Positions 1,244-59,310 of a DNA stretch of 64,000 nucleotides are shown piece by piece (position 1 is the first letter of the stretch; each line of letters begins with the position of its first letter). Position numbers and translations under genes: made by a program. The notes under the pieces are model-generated. The model saw only the letters and a list, made by a program, of their open reading frames with translations, was not told where the DNA came from and did not search any database. The stretch is from a virus (taxonomy: Duplodnaviria > Heunggongvirae > Uroviricota > Caudoviricetes), in the IMG/VR virus record IMGVR_UViG_2609459792_000007. One strand, given 5' to 3'.

Positions 1244-1258
1244 AAAACAATTTGTTTT
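1244..1258. promoter_or_regulatory. operator-like palindrome AAAACAA-T-TTGTTTT (family A)
   Basis: Perfect 15-bp dyad; overlaps presumed -35 region upstream of GATAAT at 1274-1279. Confidence 0.5.
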
Positions 1259-1293
1259 CTGCCTTTTGTTAATTGAGATAATAAGCCACATAA

Positions 1294-1309
1294 GAAAACA
1301 AATTGTTTC
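1294..1309. promoter_or_regulatory. operator-like palindrome GAAAACAAATTGTTTC (family A)
   Basis: Dyad between a GATAAT -10-like hexamer and the RBS of the 1322 gene. Confidence 0.55.
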
Positions 1310-1321
1310 GGAGTGGTTGAA

Positions 1322-1621
1322 ATGTTGAACATTACCCAAGCCTACCAGGTGGCATTGATCAGCTCATCTCATACATCAGAGGAAGATGCTCGCCGATTCA
1401 TGATCGCAAGCAATGAGCTGGATTGGGTTTCACAAATTGAGTACGGTTGCATTGTCCACGCCGGGTTACAGGACGATGACTGGAAAGATGAGTTGCGTCG
1501 ATATGGTATATCCGAGGGCGCGATTGCGAACATTCAGAAAGTACTTGATGTAGGCTTTGACTCTGTACATTTTGATTGTGGCGCACCGGTCGTTGAAGGG
1601 CTTGAGTGCTGGCAATGGTAA
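1322..1621 (+). CDS. hypothetical small acidic protein
   Basis: ORF with RBS ggagtgg 6-8 nt upstream of ATG 1322 (ORF track starts at 1313); preceded by family A operator. Confidence 0.6.
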   Translation: MLNITQAYQVALISSSHTSEEDARRFMIASNELDWVSQIEYGCIVHAGLQDDDWKDELRRYGISEGAIANIQKVLDVGFDSVHFDCGAPVVEGLECWQW

Positions 1622-1657
1622 TCCGGCAATCGCTTCATACTAGATAACGGAGAATTT

Positions 1658-1843
1658 ATGCTTAAAGAAGACTCATATCTACTAAAGGCGCTTGAAATGC
1701 GTGGCGTTGAACCTACAGTGAAAAACGCTCACGATATCTACCTTCAGTTTTCGCCAGAGCTGAAACAGCTCATAAATAAATATGGAGTGAATGACTCCAG
1801 CGTCAAAGCCATGATAGATGATGAATTAGACCATCTCATCTAA
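1658..1843 (+). CDS. hypothetical protein (61 aa)
   Basis: ORF with RBS acggag 7 nt upstream of ATG. Confidence 0.5.
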   Translation: MLKEDSYLLKALEMRGVEPTVKNAHDIYLQFSPELKQLINKYGVNDSSVKAMIDDELDHLI

Positions 1844-1859
1844 CCAAACCGTTGATAAT

Positions 1860-2790
1860 GGCGGTCACAATTTGATTCTTTTCTATAAGAATCCGTTGAT
1901 CGCCACTACTCCCCTTCCATACCCGCAATCACATCCTTAAATATCAATAAGTTATAGTTGTTTATACAATCAAGAAAACAACTGAATAACAGATCAACGA
2001 AACGTCAACGCTTTCACCCGATTTGGTCTAAAAAATTGACGTTTTCACACATCACTGCTTATACCCGTAATTCTACGCAGCAGACAGCGCCACAGCGTCC
2101 AATTTTCACCACAGACGACCCAACACACTACCAACAAAAACACACGCTCAAAATCGTTCCCGTTGCGTTACATAACCATATAAACAACTTATTTTCAGGC
2201 ATAACAAAACAACTAAATAACACATATGCCATTACCAAAAACAACCAACCTCTTTATGGCAGGCTACCGAAAAGACCCACCTCTTCTTCCCAGGCTACCG
2301 GACAACCAACCTAACTTTCACAGGCAATCCGAAAACATTCATACGCGCGATACCCACGATACGCCATTCCCCAAATAGCGAAGCACACCAGAATCACTGA
2401 AACCCCCAACGAAGCCTGTAACCGCAAGGTTTCTCTCAATCCCAAAAGACACGAAACAGAACAATCACGGGAAACGCCATTACCCAACACACGAATAACT
2501 ACAAAAGCCTTTCACGCACTCCAGACAAACACAATAACGAAAGGAATCGCCCACCTGCCATTACTCCATATACGGAGAAGAACAATCACCAAAACGACGA
2601 GAACCCCCCATAGAAGAACCACCGCAAAACGAACGAAACCACATACACCGACAGATAAAACAACACACCCAATTCACCAACAGAAATAGTCGTCGTATAG
2701 AACGTTCTGGAAGGAGTGAGCATTAACGCCTATAGAGAGGTTGAGACAGATAAAACACGAAGAAAACACAACATGTATAGCGAAGAAGCC
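1860..2790. repeat. A+C-rich, G/T-poor non-coding tract (strong strand compositional skew)
   Basis: About 900 bp dominated by A and C on the plus strand; only a low-complexity ORF (1958-2314) with no RBS; recurring caggctaccg words. Confidence 0.6.
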
Positions 2791-2899
2791 AGGTATGTAT
2801 AAGTGGGGAGGGAAGGAGGGGTGTCGCCTCCTTTTTCGTATTTATTCAACTCCTGATTTTATCCCCCGTAACACCCCTACGGTCAGCCTTCGGTCCATA

Positions 2900-3035
2900 C
2901 AGGGAAAAGGTTGCATCCCGCTACAGAAACGGCTGGGTTGCCTTCGGGGAACGGCTGGAGGTTTTCAGGGAAACGGTCGAGTTGCCTGTGTGGATTTCGG
3001 GAGAAGGCTCGATGCCGGTTCAGGAACGGTGGCGT
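2900..3035. repeat. iteron-like direct repeats G(G/A)AACGG(C/T), about 22-bp spacing, 5 copies
   Basis: cagaaacggctgg 2924, gggaacggctgg 2947, cagggaaacggtcg 2967, gggagaaggctcg 2998, caggaacggtggc 3021. Confidence 0.6.
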
Positions 3036-3364
3036 ACCGGTATAGCGAGAGGGAGAGTTGCGGCTACCCACCTGTAATGTGCGGGAAGAAGAGAGGCGCT
3101 CACGTAGGCGGACTTGCTTACCGCTGGATTCCCTCTGAATGCCCAGCTACAGCGTAATTGTGCCAGACAGTCAGCGGGTCACAATCGATTTCAGTAGGTT
3201 TTCGGGGAGGGGATTATTCTGCCCACCAGCCATCTTCGGCCACTAAATCAGAATAATGTAAAAAGTGTACTCGATACTGAACCTGAAAACTCACTGCCAA
3301 AACAACATTCACCGGAATAAAATCCTTTTTAGCCTGTGCGTTATTGCGATAATAACACCAACGA

Positions 3365-3380
3365 GAAAACAAGTTGTTTA
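3365..3380. promoter_or_regulatory. operator-like palindrome GAAAACAAGTTGTTTA (family A)
   Basis: Sits 10 nt downstream of GATAAT (3345-3350) and just upstream of RBS aagga. Confidence 0.55.
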
Positions 3381-3391
3381 AGGATTGCTTT

Positions 3392-3721
3392 ATGTTTGCA
3401 AATATCGACATCAACCAAATCAAGAAATTAACTCAAAAAGAGTTTGATCAGTTTTATGAGTTAGAAGGTTGGTCTTCCACTCTGATCAATTCGCGGTGGG
3501 TGCTTGAGCTGATGACTCGTGATGACGCACCTGCTTTGATGATCAGCGACCTGGGTGAAGATGCTGACTTTATGGATATGAGCGAATTTTGTGTGGACAC
3601 ATACAACCGCAGCCAGAAGTACTACTTCACATGCGATAGCGAAAATGACGTGATTTCTAAGGTCTATCTTCACCTCGTCCAGCATTGGGACGTTCAGGAG
3701 TTTCTTGAAGTATTCGAGTAA
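3392..3721 (+). CDS. hypothetical small acidic protein
   Basis: ATG 3392 with RBS aagga at 3380-3384; ORF track alternative start 3374 lies inside the operator; D/E-rich translation. Confidence 0.6.
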   Translation: MFANIDINQIKKLTQKEFDQFYELEGWSSTLINSRWVLELMTRDDAPALMISDLGEDADFMDMSEFCVDTYNRSQKYYFTCDSENDVISKVYLHLVQHWDVQEFLEVFE

Positions 3722-3728
3722 CCCCAAC

Positions 3729-3757
3729 CAAAGCCAGCATTGCTGGCTTAATTTCTC
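3729..3757 (+). terminator. hairpin terminator
   Basis: aagccagc-attg-ctggctt followed by aatttctc. Confidence 0.5.
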
Positions 3758-3848
3758 TATAGCCGCAGGGAAGAACCTGCATATCGCTCATGCACCTGAT
3801 CAATATGCTTTGTAGCCGTTTTCTTACTGGTATTATTTACGCCATTGA

Positions 3849-3864
3849 GAAAACAAGTTGTTTA
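3849..3864. promoter_or_regulatory. operator-like palindrome GAAAACAAGTTGTTTA (family A)
   Basis: Downstream of TATTAT -10-like hexamer, immediately before RBS acggag. Confidence 0.55.
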
Positions 3865-3874
3865 CGGAGTTGTG

Positions 3875-4186
3875 ATGAAAAAATCATTGGTTCTTGGTCT
3901 GGACAAAGACCAGAAGAGAAAAGAGAAGCCTGCGCTGGTTGCTCAATTAACTTTGCTGGACATCGTTGCCAATGGAACCTCTATTCGTCTGTTCCGTGAA
4001 ACAGCGGTGTCTTTCGATAAAAACACCTTTACTCGTTATGTAATGAATGTTCGTCGCCAGCGTGGAAAAGGCTGGGTGGCATTTCAAAGAATGTGGCCGG
4101 AACATCAGCTCGAACTGGCTTTGATGGAAGTTAACCGCGTGGCCCAGCAAGAGATTCAGAGAGCATCAGTGATGGCAATAGCCTGA
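3875..4186 (+). CDS. hypothetical basic protein
   Basis: ATG 3875 with RBS acggag; ORF track start 3845 lies inside the operator. Confidence 0.55.
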   Translation: MKKSLVLGLDKDQKRKEKPALVAQLTLLDIVANGTSIRLFRETAVSFDKNTFTRYVMNVRRQRGKGWVAFQRMWPEHQLELALMEVNRVAQQEIQRASVMAIA

Positions 4187-4220
4187 TAATGTGCAAGTGG
4201 TAATTAGTCGACAGTACGAC

Positions 4221-4249
4221 AGCCCCGCCATCCTTACGGGGCTTTTTTG
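4221..4249 (+). terminator. rho-independent terminator
   Basis: agccccg-ccatccttac-ggggct followed by tttttt. Confidence 0.8.
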
Positions 4250-4253
4250 TATT

Positions 4254-4269
4254 GTAAGTACATACTTAC
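4254..4269. promoter_or_regulatory. palindrome GTAAGTA-CA-TACTTAC (family B, TAAGTA type)
   Basis: Perfect inverted repeat directly after the terminator and upstream of the 4313 gene. Confidence 0.5.
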
Positions 4270-4312
4270 GATCATAGAATATAAAAATAACCAAAACACT
4301 ACGGAGAGTGAA

Positions 4313-4708
4313 ATGACCGTTAAACGCGAAAAACTGACAGTTGATGTTTACTATGCCTCTGAAACCGCCGAAGGTAAGAATGTGGCAAAAATCACCGTTG
4401 TTACGTACAACACCGAAACTGGTGCCGAAGTCCAGGCCAGTACGATTGTGCGTAAAGGTGATGCCTCCGGCGGCGAGTACGCGACTCAATACCAGTCCAT
4501 TCTCGATGCAACTGACCCGCTGCTGCTGAAAATCGAGAACTACTTCCGCCAGGTTGATGAAGAGGTGTTTGAAACCATGATGAATATGGTTAACACCGTA
4601 TTCGCCTCCAGCCTGAATACCAACACTACCTGGATTGGTCAGTACGGCCTGCGCATTACCTCTGGCATTCCTGCCGACACCTTAATCCCTGAAAGCGTAT
4701 TCGCTTAA
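4313..4708 (+). CDS. hypothetical protein
   Basis: ATG 4313 with RBS ggagag 5 nt upstream. Confidence 0.65.
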   Translation: MTVKREKLTVDVYYASETAEGKNVAKITVVTYNTETGAEVQASTIVRKGDASGGEYATQYQSILDATDPLLLKIENYFRQVDEEVFETMMNMVNTVFASSLNTNTTWIGQYGLRITSGIPADTLIPESVFA

Positions 4709-4720
4709 TCCTCTTTAAAT

Positions 4721-4748
4721 GGCGCGTAAACCGCGCCATTTTATTATG
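4721..4748 (+). terminator. rho-independent terminator
   Basis: ggcgcg-taaacc-gcgcc followed by attttatt. Confidence 0.75.
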
Positions 4749-4751
4749 CCC

Positions 4752-4768
4752 GATAACAATTTGTTTTC
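4752..4768. promoter_or_regulatory. operator-like palindrome GATAACAATTTGTTTTC (family A)
   Basis: Same word plus tctgcc flank as the copy at 1244. Confidence 0.5.
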
Positions 4769-4825
4769 TGCCTTATCTGATTTGTGAAAATGATTTCACT
4801 GAAGCAACTTAATAAGGAAACCATC

Positions 4826-5200
4826 ATGGGACTTGATATCTATATCGAGACGCAGCCTAAAAACGATCTGAATAACGAGGCATCCAGAAAGCAGGTTGCT
4901 TACTTCCGTAAGTTCAATGCGCTCGTTGGGTGGATGGAGCGCAACGTAGGTGAAGTCGAAAATTGTGAGCTTTTAGAATTAACGATGAATGACATTTGTT
5001 TTCTGAAGGCTCATTTGATGCACATAAACGAAAGTAATTGCGAAGAGTACTTGCCTACCCGGGAAGGTTTTTTCTTCGGCAGTCAGGAGTACGATGAAGG
5101 TTACTGGCATGATGTGGGGCAGTTGAAAGAGCTTGTGGAAGATCTGATTAAGAACCACGACTTTCACAATAACAGACTGACCTTCTGCGCCTGGTGGTAA
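4826..5200 (+). CDS. hypothetical protein
   Basis: ATG 4826 with RBS aaggaaac; ORF track start at 4784. Confidence 0.6.
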   Translation: MGLDIYIETQPKNDLNNEASRKQVAYFRKFNALVGWMERNVGEVENCELLELTMNDICFLKAHLMHINESNCEEYLPTREGFFFGSQEYDEGYWHDVGQLKELVEDLIKNHDFHNNRLTFCAWW

Positions 5201-5202
5201 AT

Positions 5203-5346
5203 ATGGGCGATTTCAAGAAACGCCTGAAGGAAAGAGCCGAGATGGTCAGAAAGCGAAACGCCTCTTCTGTCATCAGATACGCAAGGCAGTTTAGTCGCAA
5301 CAACAAATCAGTTGAGGAAAAGATCCTTAGCGTAATCGGGCGATAA
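5203..5346 (+). CDS. possible small basic protein (47 aa), below ORF-track size cutoff
   Basis: ATG 3 nt after the upstream stop; K/R-rich translation MGDFKKRLKERAEMVRKRNA...; ends just before terminator. Confidence 0.3.
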   Translation: MGDFKKRLKERAEMVRKRNASSVIRYARQFSRNNKSVEEKILSVIGR

Positions 5347-5349
5347 TTA

Positions 5350-5377
5350 TTAAGGCCACCAGCATTGGTGGCCTTAA
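5350..5377 (+). terminator. hairpin terminator, copy 1 of a twin element
   Basis: ttaaggccacca-gcat-tggtggccttaa. Confidence 0.6.
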
Positions 5378-5501
5378 ATGACTTTTAATAACCGAAGGTT
5401 AGTTTGAAACCTGGCTATCAACTTCCAGAACCTTTCTTGTGTATTCAGCCTGTATTAACTTCTTTTATGCCTTATCTACACTGCGATAATTACACCAACA
5501 A

Positions 5502-5518
5502 GAAAACAACATGTTTAC
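5502..5518. promoter_or_regulatory. operator variant GAAAACAACATGTTTAC (family A)
   Basis: Preceded by GATAAT (5485-5490) plus tacaccaac spacer as at 3345 and 5970. Confidence 0.5.
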
Positions 5519-5535
5519 GCAGTGAGGATATGCTC

Positions 5536-5817
5536 ATGACTGATTTCACCATTACCCCTAAAGCACAAAATGTATTCCTTGAATCATGGCTGGACTTGCC
5601 GGAAACAGAACAGCAAGAAATGGATCATGTGGATTATGACGAGCAGGTAAGCACGCGATTCTTCCACTTTGAGGGCTGCGTTTACGACATTGCCGACTTC
5701 ATGCGAGATGACCGCTTCCCTGAATGGCACGCCAGTTATCCACTAAACGCCTTTGCCATGCTGATGATCCGTGTGGATGATTCAGGGGATACCATCGACA
5801 TCGGTCTGCTCCACTAA
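5536..5817 (+). CDS. hypothetical small acidic protein
   Basis: ATG 5536 with RBS gagga 7 nt upstream; D/E-rich. Confidence 0.6.
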   Translation: MTDFTITPKAQNVFLESWLDLPETEQQEMDHVDYDEQVSTRFFHFEGCVYDIADFMRDDRFPEWHASYPLNAFAMLMIRVDDSGDTIDIGLLH

Positions 5818-5820
5818 AGA

Positions 5821-5848
5821 TTAAGGCCACCAATGCTGGTGGCCTTAA
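5821..5848 (+). terminator. hairpin terminator, copy 2 of twin element (loop inverted)
   Basis: ttaaggccacca-atgc-tggtggccttaa; same stem as 5350 with loop gcat changed to atgc. Confidence 0.6.
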
Positions 5849-5986
5849 ATGACCATCCTGTTTCCCGCAGGCTAAAAACACCAACCTCTTACCTCCAGGC
5901 AACCGACAAACCCACCTGTTCCCGTCCGGCTACCGCAACTTTCCACTTTGACGCCTTATTCGTACAACGATAATTAACACCAACAA

Positions 5987-6002
5987 GAAAACAATTTGTT
6001 AT
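5987..6002. promoter_or_regulatory. sigma70-like promoter plus family A operator GAAAACAATTTGTTAT
   Basis: TTTGAC (5946-5951), 16-nt spacer, GATAAT (5968-5973), then the dyad, then RBS aagga. Confidence 0.6.
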
Positions 6003-6021
6003 TTACGATAAGGAATTAATC

Positions 6022-6504
6022 ATGAATTTTATCGCTACTGTAAACGCACCCGCACATGGCAATATCGCTGTAACGTTCTCTGACATTGAAAAACGAGTAC
6101 TTGGTGCATGGCGCGACAATGAGACGGTAGAACTGTCAGCACAAGAAAAATGCATTATTGCACGCGACATCATTGGCAATCGTCGTTACTCGCGGGTATT
6201 TGAGAAAGCGTATGTGGTAAATTCTGGGTTCGGAACGTTCGTCTTTCCGGTGCGCTCCGGGCGATTCTGCCAGTCCAAGCTGATTGAGTTCGCTACGCAG
6301 ATTTCTGTCTGGATTAAAACTCAATCGTCGTTCAAATTTTCCGACGATGAAGCAGTATCGCAGGGGATGCGGATCGCCAACAATGCGATTAAATGCAAAA
6401 ACATTACGTATACCGCTGGCGTTGACACATGGAAACTGTTTTGCGCTAACTTTATGCTGAATGTATACGCAAGCAACCGCATCCACATCCTTGATGGCGT
6501 GTAA
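6022..6504 (+). CDS. hypothetical protein (160 aa)
   Basis: ATG with RBS aaggaa; preceded by promoter/operator module. Confidence 0.65.
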   Translation: MNFIATVNAPAHGNIAVTFSDIEKRVLGAWRDNETVELSAQEKCIIARDIIGNRRYSRVFEKAYVVNSGFGTFVFPVRSGRFCQSKLIEFATQISVWIKTQSSFKFSDDEAVSQGMRIANNAIKCKNITYTAGVDTWKLFCANFMLNVYASNRIHILDGV

Positions 6505-6513
6505 CTGAGAAGA

Positions 6514-6535
6514 GGGCCAGAAACGGCCCTTTCTC
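6514..6535 (+). terminator. hairpin terminator
   Basis: gggcc-agaaac-ggccc followed by tttctc. Confidence 0.6.
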
Positions 6536-6553
6536 TATAGCCACCAGCTGCCG

Positions 6554-6633
6554 CAGGGAAATTTTCAGAAACGGCGAGGAACGTATTCATGAGCCGACGG
6601 GAAACGGCCAGGATTTTTTCGGGAAACGGCTGC
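6554..6633. repeat. second iteron-like cluster TTTTC(A/G)GGAAACGGC
   Basis: cagaaacggcgagg 6566, cgggaaacggccagg 6598, cgggaaacggctgc 6620; last two exactly 22 bp apart. Confidence 0.55.
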
Positions 6634-7088
6634 ATTCGCCTTTATGTAGAAAAAACATCGGGAAGCTGGTGGAATCCAACCAGCGGTTGTCGGACAGGCG
6701 AGCGGGGAAAATTATGATGACTTTCGTCGCCTGATACATCCAGATTTCTTTCGTAGCGTAATCACATACGTGATTAAGTGGTGTGATTATGTGAAAAATC
6801 ACGCGCACATAATACGCGAGCGGACACAGAACAACACAAAATGCCGATCCGCGCCGACAAATAAACGCGGATCACATAGCAAGACTAAAAGCCAATGATT
6901 AACCATACGCTATAGCGCAATATAACGCGTTTTAAGCGCGTTAATGTGTTAAGTAATGGGTATGTACTGGCAAGGATATAAAAGCGCGTCTATGGCGTTA
7001 TTTTGGCGCTTATTTTTATGTTGTTGGAGTGAGTTAAAGACAATAAAAAACGCCCCATCATGGGCGGGTTATGGGGGGAGTATTGAAA

Positions 7089-8870: not shown

Positions 8871-9395
8871 TCAAAAAGGCAAAATTCGTTCAACCCAATC
8901 GAACAAAACAACTATTTTTCTACCGTTCTCGACACGTAGTGTAACCTGACAAGCATCTGCGCCTGCTGACACCCCCTCAATTTCACGGCCATCCGCCATG
9001 TACACCCTTATAGATTTGTTTGCTTTGTAGGCTTGGTTGCAAATTGCAAAAAAATCGCGGCGTGATGGCCGATTATCGACATAATCAGGGTGAACTGTTA
9101 GTCGACCTTTGAAATCGTGAGCGATACTGTCAACCACACCTGATTCAATTGTACTAATGCGTTCAAGTGGGAGCCTTATACGATTTTCTTTGTCAAAAGG
9201 GGCTGGGCAAAGGTCAACTTTGTTACGAGATGGCATGAGGCCATAAACGTACATGCAAAACGCCTGGCCATCTTCGAGAGTGACCCTTACAGGAATTTGT
9301 TCTCTGCGCCAGAACATCAGTAGTTTTTCAACGTTAGTGTAATCTCGCGGCCAGAGTTCAGCTTGGATACCGTAGGTAATATCTTTGGTTGTCAT
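8871..9395 (-). CDS. hypothetical protein
   Basis: ORF; likely start MTTKD at 9395 overlapping upstream stop. Confidence 0.5.
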   Translation of the reverse strand: MTTKDITYGIQAELWPRDYTNVEKLLMFWRREQIPVRVTLEDGQAFCMYVYGLMPSRNKVDLCPAPFDKENRIRLPLERISTIESGVVDSIAHDFKGRLTVHPDYVDNRPSRRDFFAICNQAYKANKSIRVYMADGREIEGVSAGADACQVTLRVENGRKIVVLFDWVERILPF

Positions 9396-9890: not shown

Positions 9891-10169
9891 TTATTTTAAT
9901 CTGCTTAATAGCGTTTCGAGATCTTCCTTTGTCATATTAGAGTTCTCATAGATACGCATGATTTTCTCACGAGTCTTAGCGGAAGCCCCGACAGAAGATA
10001 TAACCTTGTCAAAGTCGGCCATTGTCAATTGTTCCAGAATGGTATTTATGACTTCAGCCTTAGACATTTTGATATTTTTTTCTTTTAGTTTCACTTGAAA
10101 CTTTCCAAGTTTGTCATTGGCCTTATCAGACAATGCTACCTGACAGTAAGTTGTTTTCTTTTCACTCAT
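9891..10169 (-). CDS. hypothetical protein (92 aa)
   Basis: ORF directly downstream of helicase gene on minus strand. Confidence 0.5.
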   Translation of the reverse strand: MSEKKTTYCQVALSDKANDKLGKFQVKLKEKNIKMSKAEVINTILEQLTMADFDKVISSVGASAKTREKIMRIYENSNMTKEDLETLLSRLK

Positions 10170-14720: not shown

Positions 14721-14987
14721 ATGACGTTAACCGACAAACAAAAGGACATCATCAAAACGCTCAATCTCGGTTATGAGCGAGGTCATCTACTTGACCTGGA
14801 CGAATTGCTTGAAGTTTTGCCGTACAAGACAACCAAGCAAAGTATCCAGTTCTCAATTCGCGCTCTGATAAAAAAGGGGCTGGTGGAGAAAGGGCATACG
14901 CGCCAACGCAGTGACAATCGCTATCACCGCCGGACTCTTGGGTTAACCACTTTAGGTCGAGCCAAAGCGAAGTTACTGGTGATGTAA
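14721..14987 (+). CDS. putative winged-helix DNA-binding protein
   Basis: 88-aa basic protein; helix-turn-wing-like segment SIQFSIRALIKKGLVEKGH. Confidence 0.45.
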   Translation: MTLTDKQKDIIKTLNLGYERGHLLDLDELLEVLPYKTTKQSIQFSIRALIKKGLVEKGHTRQRSDNRYHRRTLGLTTLGRAKAKLLVM

Positions 14988-15102: not shown

Positions 15103-15144
15103 GAAAACAAGTTGGTTAGCAGATGCAGTAAACAAGTTGTTTTA
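15103..15144. promoter_or_regulatory. two family A operator copies upstream of terminase operon
   Basis: gaaaacaagttggtta (15103-15118) and taaacaagttgtttta (15129-15144), then hairpin gagcgc-atggac-gcgctc. Confidence 0.5.
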
Positions 15145-15182
15145 GAGCGCATGGACGCGCTCTGTGTGTTTTAGAGGGATCT

Positions 15183-45807: not shown

Positions 45808-45823
45808 GAAAACAAGTTGTTTC
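45808..45823. promoter_or_regulatory. family A operator GAAAACAAGTTGTTTC upstream of partition operon
   Basis: Dyad between promoter-like sequence and RBS of ParA-like gene. Confidence 0.55.
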
Positions 45824-45857
45824 AGACAATAATAATAGACGCAAAGGGAACTCTCCA

Positions 45858-46526
45858 ATGACCAAGATCTTTGTGGTTGGCGGCACAAAGGGCGGGCCTG
45901 GCAAATCCACCGTTGCCCAGCAAATTGCCGTTTGCCTGAAAGTCAAAAAGAAGAAGAAGGTTTATATCACTGATATAGATATTCAGCGCACGACAACAAG
46001 CTGGTGTGAAGACCGTCGACAGAACGAAGACCTTGAGCTGATTCCTTTTGCATACGTTCAGGATGACATCATTAAGCACCTAAAATCGCTTCAGGGTAGA
46101 GCTGAGTTTGTAGTGGTAGATGCTGGTGGCTTTGACTCCGAAATTCAGCGACAAGCGATGCTGATGGCCGACGTTATCATTATCCCGCTTCGTCCTAAGC
46201 GTCGTGATTTGAAATCTCTGCGTGACATCGATCCTATTATCGACAATGTTCGTAATGTAAACGATAAAGTGAAGGTCCGCGCGGTCATGAACCAGTGCCC
46301 GGCTTTGCCATCACAAGTGTCTCGCATTCTGGCGGCTAAAGAGATTGTCGAGACGTTTGGCATCGAGTCTGCGCCAGTCAATCTATATAACCGCAACGTC
46401 TACGATGATGCGGAAGAGTCAGGTCGTTCTATCTTTGAAATGACCGGTAGCGAGCGCGACAAAAAGGCGGAAGCCGAGTTTGAAGAATTTGTAGATTATC
46501 TGTTGAGTCTGGAGGAAGAAGAATAA
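45858..46526 (+). CDS. ParA/MinD-family partition ATPase (small type)
   Basis: Deviant Walker A GGTKGGPGKST; about 220 aa. Confidence 0.8.
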   Translation: MTKIFVVGGTKGGPGKSTVAQQIAVCLKVKKKKKVYITDIDIQRTTTSWCEDRRQNEDLELIPFAYVQDDIIKHLKSLQGRAEFVVVDAGGFDSEIQRQAMLMADVIIIPLRPKRRDLKSLRDIDPIIDNVRNVNDKVKVRAVMNQCPALPSQVSRILAAKEIVETFGIESAPVNLYNRNVYDDAEESGRSIFEMTGSERDKKAEAEFEEFVDYLLSLEEEE

Positions 46527-46885
46527 TGTCCATGAAAATGGGTGACCTAGCAAAGCGCAAAGAGCCTGATGCACCGGCTAAGAACACAACTCCTTTGCGC
46601 CAACCAGTCAGACCACAAGGACGCCCGACTCGTGGCAAAGAGAAAATTAAAAGCCGCACTATGTCACTGGAAGACGAATACTTCGAGCTTCTGGAAATGA
46701 TGAAGTTTATCCCTCGTTTCGAGAAGTTCACCCGCTCTGATGTGATTCGTGCTGCTATTTTCCATCTGGCAGAGAAGTCACCGCAGGAAATCGAGGACAT
46801 CGTGAAACTTAACGAGGCGATCACCGCTGCCGATGTCACGATGCGTACCGATGAAATCAAACGAGAGTTGATGAAGAAAGGTTAA
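46526..46885 (+). CDS. putative partition centromere-binding protein
   Basis: Coupled to ParA-like gene (ATGTCCATG overlap); basic N-terminus and ribbon-helix-helix-like C-terminal half. Confidence 0.5.
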   Translation: MSMKMGDLAKRKEPDAPAKNTTPLRQPVRPQGRPTRGKEKIKSRTMSLEDEYFELLEMMKFIPRFEKFTRSDVIRAAIFHLAEKSPQEIEDIVKLNEAITAADVTMRTDEIKRELMKKG

Positions 46886-48737: not shown

Positions 48738-48753
48738 GAAAACAATTTGTTTA
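48738..48753. promoter_or_regulatory. family A operator GAAAACAATTTGTTTA upstream of helicase gene
   Basis: Dyad followed by RBS aaaggaaag. Confidence 0.55.
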
Positions 48754-48771
48754 AAAAACAAAGGAAAGCAC

Positions 48772-50112
48772 ATGACCGAACTTTGCCATACAGGACGCGG
48801 GCTGTCCGAAGAGTTTGATGAAGATTTCCAGAACAGACTGACGGCATATTTTTGTCGTGATCACGAGTTTCTTACTCGTGCGGGAGATCTGGTTGTGCCT
48901 AGCCAATTTGCCAATGCGGCCAATGCCATATTGGTTAATATGGTTTCGGGCTATTACCGTATGTACAAGAGCGCGCCCTCTTCATCTGCAATTCTGGATA
49001 TGCTTAAGCGTGCGAAACGCGATAAGACTATCCGTGAGGAACTATTCGCCGATGTTGTTGCTGCGTTTAAGCGCATCCTTGCAGAAAAATTGTCCGATAC
49101 CTCGTACATGGTTGACCAGGTATCAACCTTCGCAAAAAGCGTAGCGTTTGATGATGCTCTGATTAAGGCTGCTGAACTGAAAGAGAAAGGCGACTTTCAG
49201 GGGGCGATGGCAATCATGGCCAAGGTTCAGCAGATTGGATCGAACGAAGCGACCGGAATCTATGACTACTACACCTCCGCAAGTGAGCGATTGAAAGCGC
49301 GTGAATATGAGGCTTCAGAGGAGTATGTGCCAAACAGCATTACAACTGGACTCCCTCTGCTCGATAGGTTGCTGTACCAAAAAGGCTGGGCGAAGCGTGA
49401 AATGGTGCTCTTCATGGGGTTCGCTAAATCCGGTAAATCGACCGCAATGGGTGAGTTTTCCATAAACGCAACGCTTGCTGGCTACAATGTTCTGTATCTC
49501 TCGCTGGAGGTTCACACCAACATTTTGTCCGACCGTTTTGATGCAAGATTGTCGGAGACGGAAATGTCCAAGTTGGTGGAACGGCGCGATGAAGTTCATC
49601 GTAAGTTGGCAGAGTTGGGAGCCTCTAAGGGGATTGGTAGTTTGTGGGTTGTTGAGCGTCCGTCAGGAAGTATGTCACCGGCAGATCTGGACCGTATGCT
49701 TAACAGCATGAAAGCCAACGGCATGGTGCCTGACATGGTTGTTGTCGACTACGCAGATTTGATGCGTGCCAGTTATGACCTTCGTGATGATCGCGCCAAC
49801 ATTCGTAGTATCTACACCGATTTACGTGCTCTTTATGACAAGCATAACGTTGCTGGTATCACGGCGTCGCAAACAAACCGTGAAGGTGGCGCGTCAGAAG
49901 TTGCCACAATGATGCACGCTGCCGACAACATCGAAAAAGTACGTATTGCTGACCTGGTAATAACGATCAACAAAACCGAAGAAGAAGAAGCGAAAGGAGA
50001 GGCTCGTCTCTACTTTGCTGGTTCGCGTAACCAGCAGGGAGGGATCAGCATTCGCGTTAAACAAAACCTCGAACAAATGCGCTTCATTGAGCGGATCTTA
50101 GACGTTACCTAA
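48772..50112 (+). CDS. DnaB-family replicative helicase
   Basis: RecA-like C-terminal domain with Walker A GFAKSGKST and Walker B VVVDYADLM. Confidence 0.75.
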   Translation: MTELCHTGRGLSEEFDEDFQNRLTAYFCRDHEFLTRAGDLVVPSQFANAANAILVNMVSGYYRMYKSAPSSSAILDMLKRAKRDKTIREELFADVVAAFKRILAEKLSDTSYMVDQVSTFAKSVAFDDALIKAAELKEKGDFQGAMAIMAKVQQIGSNEATGIYDYYTSASERLKAREYEASEEYVPNSITTGLPLLDRLLYQKGWAKREMVLFMGFAKSGKSTAMGEFSINATLAGYNVLYLSLEVHTNILSDRFDARLSETEMSKLVERRDEVHRKLAELGASKGIGSLWVVERPSGSMSPADLDRMLNSMKANGMVPDMVVVDYADLMRASYDLRDDRANIRSIYTDLRALYDKHNVAGITASQTNREGGASEVATMMHAADNIEKVRIADLVITINKTEEEEAKGEARLYFAGSRNQQGGISIRVKQNLEQMRFIERILDVT

Positions 50113-57131: not shown

Positions 57132-57164
57132 AAATGATTCCATACCTACTATGTATGGAATCAT
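57132..57164. other. candidate site-specific recombination site: perfect 13-7-13 inverted repeat
   Basis: AATGATTCCATAC-ctactat-GTATGGAATCATT, 100 bp upstream of tyrosine recombinase gene. Confidence 0.55.
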
Positions 57165-57217
57165 TAGTGAAAATGAGTTACTTTTACTCTTGATCCTATA
57201 AGAATCTATGCCTAATA

Positions 57218-57237
57218 TACTGTTTACTTATACAGTG
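57218..57237. promoter_or_regulatory. LexA-box-like sequence upstream of recombinase gene
   Basis: TACTGT-ttacttat-ACAGTG fits CTGT-N8-ACAG; 27 bp upstream of ATG 57264. Confidence 0.45.
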
Positions 57238-57263
57238 AATCGGCGTAACTCGGTGATTGTCAT

Positions 57264-58367
57264 ATGAAAAATAGCTTTGACAGAGCACGCGCTGCGGAGA
57301 ACACCTCAAAAGAGGCGATTGAGTATCTCGAAAGAGCATCTCAAATGCAGGCCGTTATGATCTCGCAGGTTAGCATTGATATGAGATTCTCGGACGCATT
57401 CATGTTATTCACTCGCTTATCTCTGCTGATAACCAGACGTCGGCCAGAGATCGCTGTTCATTGTATTTTGATACATGTTTTGCCGCACATTGCCGATGTA
57501 AAAGTAAGTGACATTAATAGGTTCATGGTGAACCAGCTGGTCAACCCACTAATACTGGATGGCAAAATTGTTATGGGCCGCCGCGTTTTCTCTCTGATGA
57601 AACAGTTCCTTAGCTGGTGCGCCTTCCAGGGGATGATAGACGTGTCACCGTTAAACGATATGTCACTAAACAAAGTTGCCGGTGGCGCAAAGCCCACACC
57701 TCGCGAGCGGAAGCTGACCGACGCAGAGGTATGGGTGTTCTGGAATATATGGGACTACTTCAATGTGTGCGCTGGTACAAAATGGGCGGCCAGGCTGTGT
57801 CTTGTATCAGCAAGACGACCTGACGAAGTACTGCGGGCTAAAAAAAGTGAGTTCAATCTTAAGCGTGGGGTTTGGAATCAAGGCAAGAGAAACAAGTCAG
57901 CACGTGAGCATTCGCTGCCTTTAAGCACATTAATGCGCACATGCATTGAAGAGTTGTTCGAATACGGTAAAGACAGCCAGTGGCTCGTGCCTTCGAATAA
58001 AAAAATCGGGAAAGACCTTCCTATGTCTAAAGTGGCAATAGCCCAGGCATTACGTCGTATTCTGGAACGACCAGAACTGATGGAGCTTGAGCCATTTACA
58101 CCCCGAGATTTGCGCCGTACTGCGCGTAGTTACTTCCCAGCATTAGGCATAAGCCAGGAGGTATCACGCAAAATCATGAACCACAGTCTTGAGGGGATAG
58201 ATCGGGTCTACGACCGGCACGATTATATGGACGAGATGCGAGACGCCTTAGAAAGTTTCTCGACGTACATCGCATCAATCGTAGAGCAACCGGATTTAGA
58301 CGAAATTGACCACAAATTCAAGGGAGATCGTCTATCAACAGAGCTTATTCGTGTAAATTTTTCATAG
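57264..58367 (+). CDS. tyrosine recombinase / integrase family protein
   Basis: C-terminal catalytic-domain-like residues (ARRPDE, DLRRTARSY, MNHS, RVYDRHDY). Confidence 0.7.
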   Translation: MKNSFDRARAAENTSKEAIEYLERASQMQAVMISQVSIDMRFSDAFMLFTRLSLLITRRRPEIAVHCILIHVLPHIADVKVSDINRFMVNQLVNPLILDGKIVMGRRVFSLMKQFLSWCAFQGMIDVSPLNDMSLNKVAGGAKPTPRERKLTDAEVWVFWNIWDYFNVCAGTKWAARLCLVSARRPDEVLRAKKSEFNLKRGVWNQGKRNKSAREHSLPLSTLMRTCIEELFEYGKDSQWLVPSNKKIGKDLPMSKVAIAQALRRILERPELMELEPFTPRDLRRTARSYFPALGISQEVSRKIMNHSLEGIDRVYDRHDYMDEMRDALESFSTYIASIVEQPDLDEIDHKFKGDRLSTELIRVNFS

Positions 58368-58748
58368 AGACTTTATGGCCTCAACAACCTTTTGTGATGC
58401 GCCTTTCTCTTTACCGAATCGCTCGTTATACGCAGCAAGAACCTGTTTTTCGTCCTCGTTAAGAGGAGCGGTGCCTTCTTTGTATAAAAATGCTGCGAGT
58501 TCAGGTTGGCGTTCTTCCAGCACCATCATCATAAGACGACTTGGTTCAATACCCAGCGCCAGCGCCAGCGGACGAACCTTATCGATAGGCAAAGGAATTT
58601 TGCCACTTTTAATTAAAGAAAGGTTGTTGGCATTTTTATAACCAATAAGTCTGGCTATTTGGGCCTGACTCATAGGTGAGGATTCAATCAGCCCTGCGAT
58701 AAAAGCAGCATAGCGACTTTCTATAAATTCAATCTTGTTGTCAGACAT
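58362..58748 (-). CDS. XRE-family helix-turn-helix transcriptional regulator
   Basis: HTH-like segment SQAQIARLIGYKNANNLSLIKSGK in a 128-aa protein. Confidence 0.7.
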   Translation of the reverse strand: MSDNKIEFIESRYAAFIAGLIESSPMSQAQIARLIGYKNANNLSLIKSGKIPLPIDKVRPLALALGIEPSRLMMMVLEERQPELAAFLYKEGTAPLNEDEKQVLAAYNERFGKEKGASQKVVEAIKSL

Positions 58749-58786
58749 TGTTACAACCTTTGCGCGTTTAATTCTCTCTGGTAAGT

Positions 58787-58800
58787 GCTTACCGATATTA
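58787..58800. promoter_or_regulatory. palindrome GGTAAG-TG-CTTACC upstream of regulator gene
   Basis: Perfect dyad about 40 bp upstream of the regulator start; related to family B. Confidence 0.45.
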
Positions 58801-58999
58801 CATCAAAGGTTAGGGTTGTAAAGCTATTATCATTTTTTTCGGCAGGCACTTGTAAGACCGAGCAAAGGTCCATGCATGGAGAAAAACTAGCCCAAAATAG
58901 GTAAGAAAATTAACTTGCATCTGATATAGATGTATTCAGTATTGATACAAATTTTAGTAGTATTCCTTACCATAGTATAAGTTAGAATGGATTGATTGA

Positions 59000-59212
59000 A
59001 TGAAAACCACTATTTCCAGCCTAATCGCTCTTGAGATCGGACACGTACAGAAATTAGCTGATGAGTGTGTAGCTGACATCCTCACCGATCTACCGAATGA
59101 GCAGATTCAGGTTGGTGTGAATGACACAACTGGCTTTATATTCGAACTTAACAACAAACGCTTCACGCTTCTCAATACCGGCTCCGGGTCTTTAGCCGTC
59201 AGAATCTGTTAA
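59000..59212 (+). CDS. possible small protein (70 aa)
   Basis: ORF in AT-rich intergenic region; followed by hairpin ctgcgcgaa...ttcgcgcag. Confidence 0.3.
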   Translation: MKTTISSLIALEIGHVQKLADECVADILTDLPNEQIQVGVNDTTGFIFELNNKRFTLLNTGSGSLAVRIC

Positions 59213-59310
59213 CCCCTCTTCTCCCTGCGCGAATGGCTTAGTTCCCTGTTCGCGCAGTGCTACATTAAACACACTAGTAAATAATTTGTTTTCATAACAA
59301 AGGATTAGCC

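What the first reader, a model, noticed from the sequence alone, without database searches (positions are those of the whole stretch)
1244..59283. Family A: 16-bp dyad GAAAACAA-N-TTGTTTTC at 12 or more intergenic sites
Copies at 1244, 1294, 3365, 3849, 4752, 5502, 5987, 15103, 15129, 45808, 48738 and a half-site at 59267. They lie between the -10 hexamer and the RBS of early cassette genes and in front of the terminase, partition and helicase operons. The dyad cannot form an RNA hairpin (no loop), so it is most likely a dimeric DNA-binding protein site that co-regulates several modules.
Basis: seen in the sequence. Interest (0 to 1): 0.75.

Follow-up and report, generated by a model that had tools for sequence, protein, structure and literature searches.

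The report
Shared control site of phage-plasmid promoters
A 17-base mirror-symmetric sequence sits at exactly the same spot just downstream of about twenty promoters of an SSU5-type phage-plasmid (relatives include Salmonella Typhi pHCM2 and part of the plague plasmid pMT1), so it is almost certainly the common control site of one undescribed regulon that keeps the phage's lytic-direction genes silent, but the factor that reads it is still unidentified.

Summary
The window has 15 matches to GAAAACAANTTGTTTTC with 3 mismatches or fewer, against 0.63 expected. The strong sites are essentially all intergenic.

The window is an SSU5-like phage-plasmid, about 97% identical to E. coli phage Cyrano (pLF82).

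The true consensus is A|GAAAACAA-N-TTGTTTAa, with a perfectly symmetric 13-bp core, AAACAA-N-TTGTTT. In 26 of 26 promoter-proximal sites of Cyrano and SSU5 it starts exactly 11 nt after a -10 hexamer (nATAAT, often TGn-extended), at about +6 to +22. A subset of promoters carries a second, inverted copy ending exactly 17 nt upstream of the -10.

The motif is unchanged across E. coli, Salmonella, Klebsiella and Y. pestis pMT1 relatives. In published lysogen RNA-seq, 12 of 15 motif-linked genes are at background and only parA is clearly on.

My best reading (about 0.5) is a DNA operator for a two-fold-symmetric phage repressor. The RNA hairpin is weak and not compensated, and some copies lie in untranscribed DNA.

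The main rival (about 0.3) is an mRNA-leader operator for the phage's conserved FljA homolog. I show that protein to be a tandem Sm/Hfq-fold protein, and it is missing from the one distant relative that lacks the regulon.

The parts
1243..1259 (-). Family A site of the upstream (inverted) type, TAAAACAATTTGTTTTC. It ends 17 nt before the -10 at 1277-1282 and covers about -46 to -30.
   Evidence: Its centre is 51 bp from the centre of site 1294. The same geometry occurs in SSU5 (88317/88368, 93660/93711) and in L092.
1277..1282 (+). -10 hexamer GATAAT, preceded by TGa (extended -10), of the promoter for the 99-aa gene 1322-1621.
   Evidence: The hexamer's last T is the invariant T at -12 relative to the motif (26 of 26).
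1294..1310 (+). Family A site, promoter-proximal type, GAAAACAAATTGTTTCG, followed directly by SD GGAG and ATG 1322.
2180..2221 (.). Tandem pair of degenerate Family A sites 25 bp apart (2180 ATAAACAACTTATTTTC and 2205 CAAAACAACTAAATAAC), at the head of an A+C-rich stretch poor in ORFs.
   Evidence: Better-preserved pairs occur at the same place in SSU5 (90738), L092 (18358/18383) and L094.
3365..3381 (+). Family A site GAAAACAAGTTGTTTAA, 11 nt after TGcGATAAT. SD AAGGA and ATG 3392 follow.
3849..3865 (+). Family A site GAAAACAAGTTGTTTAC, 12 nt after TGgTATTAT (hexamer frame -17..-12 = ATTATT). SD GGAG and ATG 3875 follow.
4752..4768 (-). Family A site of the upstream type, GATAACAATTTGTTTTC, just after a terminator hairpin and 21 nt before ATG 4790.
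   Evidence: The orthologous site is present in SSU5 (93660), L092 (15670) and L094 (15510).
5502..5518 (+). Family A site GAAAACAACATGTTTAC, 11 nt after TGcGATAAT. The gene starts at ATG 5536.
5987..6003 (+). Family A site GAAAACAATTTGTTATT, 12 nt after GATAAT (hexamer frame -17..-12 = ATAATT). The gene is 6022-6504.
15103..15144 (+). Two Family A sites 25 bp apart in the leader of the terminase/structural operon (15103 GAAAACAAGTTGGTTAG and 15128 GTAAACAAGTTGTTTTA).
   Evidence: Both sites are conserved in 36 distinct upstream regions while the 8-nt spacer and the promoter vary. One lineage has a 25-bp deletion that fuses them into a single site.
15145..15172 (+). Terminator-like RNA hairpin GAGCGC-N6-GCGCTC plus a U-tract, between the two sites and terS (ATG 15183).
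   Evidence: Compensatory changes occur in relatives (GAGCAC/GTGCTC, and GAGCAT/GTGCTC with a G.U pair).
45808..45824 (+). Family A site GAAAACAAGTTGTTTCA in the promoter of the parA operon (parA 45858-46526).
   Evidence: The site is retained in SSU5 (30447) and in the Klebsiella type L216 (5279).
46526..46885 (+). 119-aa gene after parA. It has a basic N-terminal tail plus an RHH-like pattern, so it is a probable type Ib centromere-binding protein. It is a candidate DNA-level binder.
   Evidence: The fold was not verified. The gene is on in lysogens. It is absent from pMT1, which keeps the sites.
48738..48754 (+). Family A site GAAAACAATTTGTTTAA before the DnaB-like helicase (48772-50112).
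59277..59293 (+). Family A site GTAAATAATTTGTTTTC before the CobT-like gene (59311-61419).
   Evidence: The orthologs in SSU5 (42727) and pMT1 (36706) are near-perfect.
8871..9395 (-). FljA homolog of 174 aa with tandem Sm/Hfq-like domains. It is the candidate RNA-level binder.
   Evidence: absent from the Moellerella relative that lacks the regulon.
9891..10169 (-). 92-aa protein, possibly RHH. It lies in the same operon as the UvsW-like helicase and the FljA-like gene, and is 12x background in lysogens. It is a candidate DNA-level binder.
   Evidence: The fold assignment is tentative.
14721..14987 (+). Disfavoured.
58362..58748 (-). Disfavoured, because its own switch region has different repeats.

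Best explanation
Family A is the common operator of one regulon of a phage-plasmid.

Shown:
- About 19 (Cyrano) to 27 (SSU5) promoters that drive genes in the lytic direction carry the element. These genes are small early genes, parA, the helicase, cobT-like, nrdB and the terminase leader.
- The promoters have extended -10 elements of the sigma-70 type.
- The element starts exactly 11 nt after the -10 hexamer.
- Some promoters have a second, inverted copy ending exactly 17 nt upstream of the -10.

Inferred:
- With transcription starting about 7 nt after the -10, the sites cover about +6 to +22 and -46 to -30. Together they bracket the polymerase contact region.
- A two-fold-symmetric phage-encoded DNA-binding protein, present in the plasmid-prophage state, occupies the 13-bp dyad core AAACAA-N-TTGTTT. 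It prevents polymerase binding or escape, which keeps these strong promoters off.
- The parA operon, which carries one such site with a slightly different -10 spacing, stays partly on.

The protein is not identified. Surviving candidates at the DNA level are the 92-aa possibly-RHH protein (9891-10169), the 119-aa RHH-like protein after parA (46526-46885), or a protein I did not recognise.
For: - Enrichment: 15 matches against 0.63 expected. In Cyrano, 15-18 of 18 strong sites lie in the 13% of the genome that is non-coding.
- Symmetry: positions 3-8 and 10-15 are complementary with high information, and the central base is random (A5 C6 G8 T7).
- Geometry: T at -12 and A at -1 in 26 of 26 promoter-proximal sites, and T at -12 in 306 of 336 oriented contexts from all loci.
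- Copies outside transcripts: the upstream-type copies are the same element inverted. They lie after terminators (14 and 42 nt beyond the hairpins at 4752 and 1243) and therefore outside the leaders. Centre spacing is 51 bp in every pair examined.
- No RNA structure: hairpin energy is -0.7 kcal/mol for the consensus. No leader folds better than its shuffles. Arm changes are uncompensated (TTGGTT, GATAAC, AATTATTT).
- Conservation: the motif is unchanged at orthologous promoters in SSU5, in Klebsiella-type relatives, and in distant relatives whose FljA-like protein is 53-57% identical, while flanks diverge.
- Expression: in LF82 lysogen RNA-seq (PMC9928086, table S1; background median 9.8), 12 of 15 motif-linked first genes read 5.7-12.9. 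The helicase reads 21, CYRAN_111 reads 25.5 and parA reads 50.
- No Family A site precedes any minus-strand gene that is expressed in lysogens.
Against: - No binding protein is identified, and no candidate has a verified DNA-binding fold. AF2 of the 92-aa protein gave pLDDT 55. The 119-aa protein has only a sub-threshold RHH-family hit, E = 2e-4.
- The promoters and start sites are inferred from sequence. The simple -35/-10 scan does not call them, because the -35 hexamers are poor.
- Exact spacing to the -10 is not needed for simple steric repression.
- The outer positions are asymmetric and always oriented with GAAAAC towards the promoter.
- In the Moellerella relative the candidate DNA binders are present (diverged), but there is neither Family A nor any substitute dyad. 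The protein that is missing there is the RNA-binding FljA homolog.
- pMT1 keeps 7 sites without the ParA/119-aa pair.
- Silent mRNAs are also what FljA-type repression produces, through translation block followed by rapid decay (PMC4122451).
Confidence: 0.5

Rival explanations
1. The element is an mRNA-leader operator for the phage's FljA homolog. It is transcribed as the first ~25 nt of each mRNA (5'-AAyAA-GAAAACAA-N-UUGUUUAa, followed by SD). The tandem-Sm FljA-like protein (8871-9395), made from the lysogenic-strand operon, binds the A-rich and U-rich halves next to the ribosome-binding site. It blocks translation, and the untranslated mRNA is degraded quickly, as FljA does to fliC mRNA in Salmonella.
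For: - The protein is a full-length FljA homolog (Pfam PF03614, E = 2.5e-84).
- The gene is core to the group. It is found in all 12 complete SSU5-like phages and in 835 plasmids, including 345 from Klebsiella and 62 from Y. pestis. Those hosts are classically non-motile (general knowledge), so host flagellin is an unlikely target there.
- Every promoter-proximal site is in the sense strand of the predicted leader. In the small early genes it abuts the SD by 0-3 nt.
- Phyletic contrast: the Moellerella relative lacks the FljA-like gene and lacks the dyad, although its promoters and A-rich leaders are kept.
- pMT1 has the FljA-like gene and the sites but no ParA/119-aa pair.
- The Salmonella fliC leader contains CAAGTTGT, which matches the Family A centre, 9 nt before its SD.
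Against: - Perfect complementarity of the two halves has no obvious reason in single-stranded RNA recognition. The hairpin is unstable and not compensated.
- Roughly a third of the sites in SSU5 are inverted copies over the -35 region, beyond terminators, so they are not in the leaders.
- The element's position is fixed relative to the -10 (11 nt) but varies relative to the start codon (9-42 nt).
- The match to the fliC leader is only an 8-mer. E. coli fliC has CAAcgacTTG instead, and whole-leader similarity is no better than chance hits.
- The phyletic contrast is a single case.
Confidence: 0.3
2. The element is a cis-only part of a mobile promoter cassette. It would be part of a composite terminator/promoter/leader module, like the PeSLs of T4-type phages, spread by recombination. 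It would be kept for promoter strength, initial transcription, translation efficiency or as a recombination substrate, with no dedicated trans-acting factor.
For: - The early region is a series of terminator, promoter, small-ORF units with conserved blocks (TTTTAnGCCTTAT, TGnGATAAT, aACACCAAyAA).
- The Moellerella relative keeps the promoter, the 11-nt spacer and the A-rich leader without the right arm.
- A 25-bp deletion between the two terS-leader sites shows recombination between copies.
- A relative has a foreign AbiJ-like gene inserted with its own Family A promoter.
- PeSLs are described in PMC2839356 and PMC4122927.
Against: - The dyad is also kept at promoters whose flanks are unrelated (parA, helicase, cobT-like, nrdB, terS).
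- Inverted copies occur at -46 to -30.
- Strong extended -10 promoters that are silent in lysogens need a repressor of some kind.
Confidence: 0.08
3. The element is a site for a host transcription factor or nucleoid protein shared by Enterobacterales.
For: The motif is invariant across phage-plasmids of E. coli, Salmonella, Klebsiella, Enterobacter and Yersinia. This would fit a conserved host protein.
Against: - It matches none of the host consensus sites I could recall (KdgR, PurR, NrdR, TyrR, IHF, LexA, PhoP). Either the spacing or the half-site differs. This rests on memory, not on a database test.
- An exact scan of viral contigs finds multi-copy occurrences only in SSU5-like contigs.
- The regulon is absent from a Moellerella relative with otherwise the same promoters.
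Confidence: 0.04

Closest known systems
Phage-plasmid P1 C1 repressor with its many dispersed operators (my own knowledge of the P1 literature)
   Same: One element-encoded regulator with one recognition sequence, scattered over a ~100-kb plasmid-prophage at many promoters of lytic and accessory operons.
   Different: - P1 operators are asymmetric 17-mers at variable positions, whereas Family A has a symmetric core at one fixed position (+6 to +22) plus bracketing copies.
- No C1 homolog was seen here.
- The binder is unknown.
Global plasmid regulators that double as partition proteins: omega of pSM19035, ParG of TP228, KorB of RK2, and SopB of N15 with dispersed centromeres (PMC5016525 for type Ib, omega and ParG; KorB and N15 from my own knowledge)
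   Same: - A site sits in the parA promoter.
- A small Walker ParA is followed by a small basic-tailed, RHH-like protein, and that operon is on in lysogens.
- The same sequence recurs at many other promoters. Omega similarly binds three promoter-embedded parS sites.
   Different: - There are no iteron arrays, only single dyads or pairs.
- The RHH fold is not verified.
- pMT1 keeps the sites without this ParA/CBP pair.
- A Moellerella relative keeps the pair but not the regulon.
FljA-fliC mRNA operator of Salmonella phase variation (PMC4122451, PMC2652032)
   Same: - A homologous protein is encoded.
- The target lies between transcription start and SD.
- Target mRNAs are absent when the regulator is present.
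- Both share the central CAAGUUGU.
   Different: - There is one chromosomal target in Salmonella, against about 20 phage leaders here.
- The phage proteins are only 38-40% identical to the FljA-type flagellin repressors recovered in the search.
- A perfect dyad, and copies outside transcripts, are not expected for that mechanism.
T4 RegA translational repressor of many early mRNAs (my own knowledge)
   Same: A phage protein shuts off a large set of early messages through a short AU-rich sequence next to the ribosome-binding site.
   Different: - RegA sites overlap the start codon and are not dyads.
- No RegA homolog was noticed here.
PeSL composite terminator/promoter cassettes of T4-type phages (PMC2839356, PMC4122927)
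   Same: Repeated regulatory cassettes (terminator plus strong sigma-70-type promoter) lie between small, variable early genes. There are signs of recombination between copies.
   Different: PeSLs have no operator-like dyad downstream of the promoter. Family A also occurs at core-gene promoters with unrelated flanks.

Membership tests
Operator of a symmetric DNA-binding repressor (multi-promoter regulon) | Specific sequence over-represented and confined to non-coding DNA | tested here: met
   15 matches against 0.63 expected. In Cyrano, 15 of 18 strong sites lie in the 13% of the genome that is intergenic, and the other 3 sit at dubious CDS starts.
Operator of a symmetric DNA-binding repressor (multi-promoter regulon) | Dyad symmetry with an uncontacted centre | tested here: met
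   The 13-bp core AAACAA-N-TTGTTT is complementary position by position, and the centre base is random. The outer 2 positions are asymmetric.
Operator of a symmetric DNA-binding repressor (multi-promoter regulon) | Overlap with the RNA polymerase binding region of promoters | tested here: inconclusive
   The spacing is exact: 11 nt after the -10, and 17 nt before it for the second copies. However, the promoters and start sites are inferred from sequence only.
Operator of a symmetric DNA-binding repressor (multi-promoter regulon) | Targets repressed when the regulator is present | tested here: inconclusive
   12 of 15 motif-linked genes are at background in the LF82 lysogen RNA-seq. There is no regulator-minus comparison.
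Operator of a symmetric DNA-binding repressor (multi-promoter regulon) | A cognate protein binds the double-stranded site | not testable with these tools
   This needs EMSA, footprinting or ChIP.
Type Ib partition centromere/operator (ParG / omega type) | Small Walker ParA followed by a small CBP with a flexible basic tail and an RHH domain | tested here: inconclusive
   ParA is 222 aa. The 119-aa partner has the tail and an RHH-like pattern whose strand and helix-2 segments are invariant down to 48% identity. It has no significant family or PDB hit.
Type Ib partition centromere/operator (ParG / omega type) | Repeats bound by the CBP upstream of the par operon | tested here: inconclusive
   There is one Family A dyad in the parA promoter and no iteron array. 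The Klebsiella type adds flanking half-site-like repeats.
Type Ib partition centromere/operator (ParG / omega type) | Sites and CBP occur together | tested here: not met
   pMT1 has 7 sites but no small ParA/CBP pair. The Moellerella relative has the pair but no regulon. The first case may only reflect recent descent.
FljA-type mRNA operator | FljA-family protein encoded | tested here: met
   PF03614, E = 2.5e-84, over the full length. It is a core gene of the group.
FljA-type mRNA operator | Protein has an RNA-binding fold | tested here: met
   [not shown]
FljA-type mRNA operator | Target lies in the 5' untranslated leader near the SD | tested here: inconclusive
   This holds for the promoter-proximal sites if the inferred start sites are right. 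It does not hold for the inverted upstream copies.
FljA-type mRNA operator | Resemblance to the known fliC operator | tested here: inconclusive
   The 8-mer CAAGTTGT is shared with the Salmonella fliC leader. E. coli fliC lacks it. Overall similarity is at chance level.
FljA-type mRNA operator | Protein and sites occur together | tested here: met
   They are present together in the E. coli, Salmonella, Klebsiella, Yersinia and distant L092/L094 lineages, and both are absent in the Moellerella relative. There is only one negative lineage.
Structured RNA element (5' hairpin) | Stable fold, better than shuffled sequence | tested here: not met
   Energy is -0.7 kcal/mol for the consensus. z-scores range from +1.05 to -1.44. 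The dyad hairpin appears in 1 of 8 minimum-energy structures. There is no Rfam match.
Structured RNA element (5' hairpin) | Compensatory changes keep the pairs | tested here: not met
   Arm variants are uncompensated (TTGGTT, GATAAC, AATTATTT).
PeSL-like composite terminator/promoter cassette | Repeated terminator + sigma-70-type promoter units between small variable genes | tested here: met
   (13 terminator-like sites against 6.2 expected in 1000-7000).
PeSL-like composite terminator/promoter cassette | Element confined to plastic regions and explained by shared descent of the whole cassette | tested here: not met
   The dyad is also kept, with the same spacing, at core-gene promoters with unrelated flanks (parA, helicase, cobT-like, nrdB, terS).

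The most novel reading that the evidence does not exclude
The element and the phage's FljA homolog form a phage-wide post-transcriptional regulon. A tandem-Sm (Hfq-like) protein, until now known only as the single-target repressor of flagellin mRNA, would silence about 20 phage messages by binding a bipartite A-rich/U-rich operator at their extreme 5' ends. A variant of this reading is that the same Sm-fold protein reads the dyad as DNA at the promoter. Either way, flagellar phase variation would have borrowed its repressor from, or lent it to, a phage-plasmid control circuit. The same circuit would be present in S. Typhi pHCM2 and Y. pestis pMT1.
Probability: 0.3. Interest if true: 0.8.

Novelty: new member of a known kind. 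Interest (0 to 1): 0.6.

Why it matters
SSU5-like phage-plasmids are very common in clinical Enterobacterales. About 800 PLSDB plasmids carry the marker genes used here. They include S. Typhi pHCM2-type plasmids and half of Y. pestis pMT1/pFra, and some carry resistance genes. I found nothing in the searchable literature about how they control their genes.

This element defines the regulon. It maps about twenty promoters precisely and shows which modules are co-controlled: early takeover genes, partition, replication, nucleotide metabolism and the packaging leader. It also reduces the question 'what keeps the prophage-plasmid silent?' to three or four named proteins that can be tested with gel shifts and reporter fusions.

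Tried and rejected
1. Stable RNA hairpin or known RNA family. Rejected on folding energies, lack of compensation and no Rfam hit.

2. The HTH immunity repressor (58362-58748) as binder. Its own switch region has other repeats and no Family A site.

3. The wHTH-like 88-aa protein (14721-14987) as binder. Its recognition helix is invariant in a relative without the regulon, and it is silent in lysogens. A different dyad family (TAAGTA..TACTTA) is conserved in both lineages and is a better match for it.

4. The small early proteins as autoregulators. No DNA-binding domains were found.

5. ParB_N proteins (11796-13162). They are silent in lysogens.

6. The A+C-rich region 1940-2740 as a multi-site sponge. 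The half-site is only weakly enriched, 4 against 0.8.

7. RNA-RNA pairing between copies. The random centre base argues against it.

8. Host factor sites, compared from memory only. None fits.

9. Structure of the 92-aa candidate. The AF2 confidence is too low to use. hhalign against Mnt, CopG, ParG and omega was not significant.

10. A copy of the fliC leader in the phage. None was found.

11. Yamamoto & Kutsukake 2006 and Aldridge 2006 are not in the held library, so the mapped FljA operator could not be compared.

12. A LexA-box search found only one plausible box, at 57220, unrelated to Family A.

Full report
**What the window is.** The first 8 kb are 95-97% identical to Escherichia phage Cyrano (the pLF82 phage-plasmid of E. 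coli LF82) and to 'phage CMS-2020a'. More distant matches are to Klebsiella phage-plasmids and Salmonella phage SSU5. Window position ~15050 corresponds to position 1 of the Cyrano and SSU5 records. I used Cyrano (L001-L003) and SSU5 (L004-L005) as complete-genome proxies.

**The observation.**
- GAAAACAANTTGTTTTC with up to 3 mismatches occurs 15 times, against 0.63 expected. The spacer-less version is not enriched.
The 'half-site at 59267' is a full site at 59277.
- A PWM built from the 12 best sites gives 30 strand-hits of 13 bits or more, against 0.85 in shuffles.
- Cyrano has 18 sites of 17 bits or more. Fifteen lie in the 13% of the genome annotated as intergenic. The other three overlap CDS starts that are almost certainly mis-called.
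- Downstream genes were confirmed as a ParA-like ATPase, a DnaB-like helicase, a CobT-like protein and terS (and the Cyrano annotation).

**Anatomy.** I aligned the 26 promoter-proximal sites of Cyrano and SSU5 on the motif.
- T is invariant 12 nt upstream and A is invariant 1 nt upstream. Positions -17 to -12 read nATAAT, often preceded by TGn. The 11 intervening bases are A/C-rich (aACACCAAyAA).
- Over 336 distinct contexts from all fetched loci, 306 have the T at -12. Most exceptions are chance hits in unrelated contigs or the second class of sites.
- The motif consensus is GAAAACAA-N-TTGTTTAa. Positions 3-8 and 10-15 are complementary, and the centre base is random. The left 'GA' (25 of 26) is not mirrored.
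- The second class (window 1243 and 4752, several in SSU5) is the same asymmetric element inverted. It ends exactly 17 nt before the -10, and its GAAAAC end faces the promoter. Paired sites have centres 51 bp apart.
- With a start about 7 nt after the -10 (inference), the sites cover +6 to +22 and -46 to -30.
- Distance to the start codon varies from 9 to 42 nt.
- Two loci have tandem sites 25 bp apart: the terS leader and window 2180/2205.

**Conservation.**
- SSU5 has sites at the orthologous promoters (terS pair, parA, helicase, cobT-like, nrdB and others), about 27 in all.
- In 36 distinct terS upstream regions from IMG/VR, the two sites are conserved while the spacer and promoter vary. 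One lineage fused them by a 25-bp deletion.
- Relatives whose FljA-like protein is only 53-57% identical keep the motif and the spacing unchanged. So does a Klebsiella-type element.
- An exact scan of viral contigs finds multi-copy occurrences only in SSU5-like contigs.
- I found no description of the element or of SSU5-group regulation in the held literature.

**Expression.** Table S1 of PMC9928086 gives RNA-seq for the LF82 lysogen, with a background median of 9.8.
- Motif-linked first genes read 5.7-12.9 in 12 of 15 cases.
- The helicase reads 21, CYRAN_111 reads 25.5 and parA reads 50.
- Genes clearly on in the lysogen are mostly minus-strand genes without the motif. They include toxin-antitoxin pairs, RepA, the HTH repressor CYRAN_45 (96), CYRAN_117 (114) and, at a lower level, the FljA-like CYRAN_114. 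The plus-strand parA operon, including CYRAN_29 (89), is also on.
- Strong-looking extended -10 promoters that are silent therefore need a repressing mechanism.

**RNA structure.**
- The dyad can form a 3-nt-loop hairpin, but this is worth only -0.7 kcal/mol for the consensus and -3.5 for a perfect dyad.
- It appears in 1 of 8 minimum-energy structures of natural leaders, and no leader folds better than its shuffles.
- Arm variants are not compensated, and Rfam finds only tRNAs.
- By contrast, the hairpin between the terS-leader sites and terS does show compensatory changes, including a G.U pair. It is a real RNA terminator or attenuator.

**Candidate readers.**
It is a weak XRE-type HTH. It lies in a divergent switch region with GGTAAG/CTTACC repeats and no Family A site.
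It looks like a winged helix, but only from sub-threshold hits.
- **Window 8871-9395.** This is a full-length FljA homolog.
  - The gene is present in every SSU5-like phage and in 835 plasmids, including those of Klebsiella and Y. pestis. Flagellin cannot be the target in those hosts.
- **The 92-aa protein (9891-10169).** It is next to the FljA-like gene in the same operon. It has an RHH-like pattern, but its model is poor.
- **The 119-aa protein after parA (46526-46885).** Cyrano annotates it as RelE/ParE.
  - It has a basic tail and an RHH-like pattern, which is the architecture of type Ib centromere-binding proteins (PMC5016525).
  - The segments IKSRTMS(L/I)EDE and FTRSDVIRAAI are invariant down to 48% identity.
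  - Its fold could not be verified.

**Phyletic contrasts.**
- Moellerella wisconsensis pW18-2-b is a syntenic but distant relative.
  - It has no FljA-like gene and no Family A regulon. Its best intergenic hit is 15.8 bits, at the parA promoter.
  - Its early promoters keep the -10, the 11-nt spacer and an A-rich leader, but lack the right arm. An exhaustive palindrome count finds no substitute dyad.
  - It retains diverged copies of ParA, the 119-aa protein, the 92-aa protein (putative strand changed) and the HTH.
- Y. pestis pFra/pMT1 has the FljA-like, 92-aa, 88-aa and HTH genes but no small ParA/119-aa pair. It keeps 7 strong sites. Its DNA is too close to SSU5/pHCM2 for this to be strong evidence.

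**Comparison with the fliC leader.** Salmonella and Citrobacter fliC leaders read ...CCCAATAACATCAAGTTGTAATTGATAAGGAAAAGATCATG. They share CAAGTTGT with the Family A centre. E. coli K-12 has CAAcgacTTG instead. No phage leader resembles the fliC leader beyond chance. This is a lead, not a test.

**Weighing.**
- For a DNA operator: the perfect complementarity of the core, the random centre, the exact geometry to the -10 on both sides, the inverted copies in untranscribed DNA, and the lack of any RNA structure.
- For an RNA operator: a conserved RNA-binding repressor with no other plausible target, sense-strand leader location next to the SD, silent mRNAs, and the single lineage in which protein and regulon are both missing.
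- I commit to the DNA operator at about 0.5. I give the FljA-leader model about 0.3, a purely cis cassette function about 0.08 and a host factor about 0.04.
- Shown: the element, its geometry, its conservation, the regulon membership, the silence of most targets, and the Sm fold of the FljA homolog.
- Inferred: promoters, start sites, repression, and every protein-site assignment.

**Novelty.** A dispersed single-sequence regulon on a plasmid-prophage is a known kind of system (P1 C1, RK2 KorB, pSM19035 omega, N15 SopB sites). This is a new, apparently undescribed member with an unusually rigid promoter-bracketing geometry.

Noticed in passing
[not shown]
   Followed up: partly
window 1940-2740: An ORF-poor, strongly strand-asymmetric A+C-rich stretch (2197-2730: A 40%, C 32%, G 14%, T 14%). 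It has three GCCATTAC(C) repeats (2229, 2477, 2558) and starts right after a tandem pair of degenerate Family A sites. The layout is conserved in SSU5 and in distant relatives. It may be a long unstructured leader or non-coding RNA; it remains unexplained.
   Followed up: partly
window 15145-15172: An intrinsic-terminator-like hairpin between the terS-leader sites and terS, with compensatory substitutions across relatives. This suggests attenuation or antitermination control of the packaging/structural operon, and a ~75-nt leader RNA carrying two Family A copies.
   Followed up: partly
window ~15005-15066 and ~47810-47871: A ~60-bp composite palindrome (CTGCwTCTGTATATATAAAT-AATAAGTAACTTATTAA-ATATATACGGAAGCAGG) occurs twice. 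One copy is just upstream of the terS leader, at the conventional genome start. The other is upstream of ORF 47979. Its outer arms are highly conserved in 36 relatives. It could be a packaging or replication site, or a bidirectional terminator.
   Followed up: no
window 4255, 11778, 18575, 24071, 37485, 51390, 54913, 61438: A second dyad family, (A)TAAGTA-N2-6-TACTTA(T), lies 35-60 nt upstream of start codons of structural, replication and other genes, and in the helicase/parB divergent region. It is also present in the Moellerella relative (25977, 45523, 90402). It may be a second regulon, for example for late-gene activation.
   Followed up: partly
window 58776-58975: The divergent region between the HTH repressor gene and the 70-aa gene at 59000 holds the palindrome GGTAAGTGCTTACC plus further GGTAAG/CTTACC half-sites. 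These are likely the operators of the local immunity switch and are distinct from Family A.
   Followed up: partly
window 57220-57235: A LexA-box-like sequence, CTGTTTACTTATACAG, lies 29 nt upstream of the integrase gene (57264). That gene converges on and overlaps the end of the HTH repressor gene. This is a possible SOS input, since Cyrano is induced 39-fold by ciprofloxacin (PMC9928086).
   Followed up: no
window 46526-46885; Cyrano CYRAN_29, CYRAN_105, CYRAN_110, CYRAN_103: Probable annotation errors in the public Cyrano record. CYRAN_29 ('RelE/ParE toxin') looks like the partition centromere-binding protein. The CYRAN_105 start lies inside the motif, and the CYRAN_110 start lies upstream of its own promoter. 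CYRAN_103 spans the non-coding tandem sites and has zero reads.
   Followed up: partly
window 48755-48771, 59294-59310; SSU5 42744-42760: In the longer leaders a third box, (A)AACAAAGGA, lies about 10 bp after the G of the right arm and runs into the SD. The right arm UUGUUU can pair with it in predicted folds. It could be an extra half-site or an SD-masking alternative structure.
   Followed up: no
window 1200-6100 (early promoters): Early promoters share a conserved block, TTTTAnGCCTTAT, at about -30. They have TGn-extended -10 elements and poor -35 hexamers. The block loosely resembles a T4 MotA box (TGCTTtA); this comparison is from memory and is untested.
   Followed up: no
L092 3152-3168 and 3277-4170: A distant relative has an AbiJ-like abortive-infection gene inserted between the 88-aa gene and terS. 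The insert is driven by its own Family A-bearing promoter, so newly acquired genes are plugged into the regulon.
   Followed up: no
L223/L224 (Y. pestis pFra NZ_CP151628) 36706, 50840, 62952, 63003, 63495, 72386, 72411: The plague plasmid pMT1/pFra retains seven strong Family A sites and the FljA-like, 92-aa, 88-aa and HTH genes. It has replaced the small ParA system with a type Ia ParAB.
   Followed up: partly
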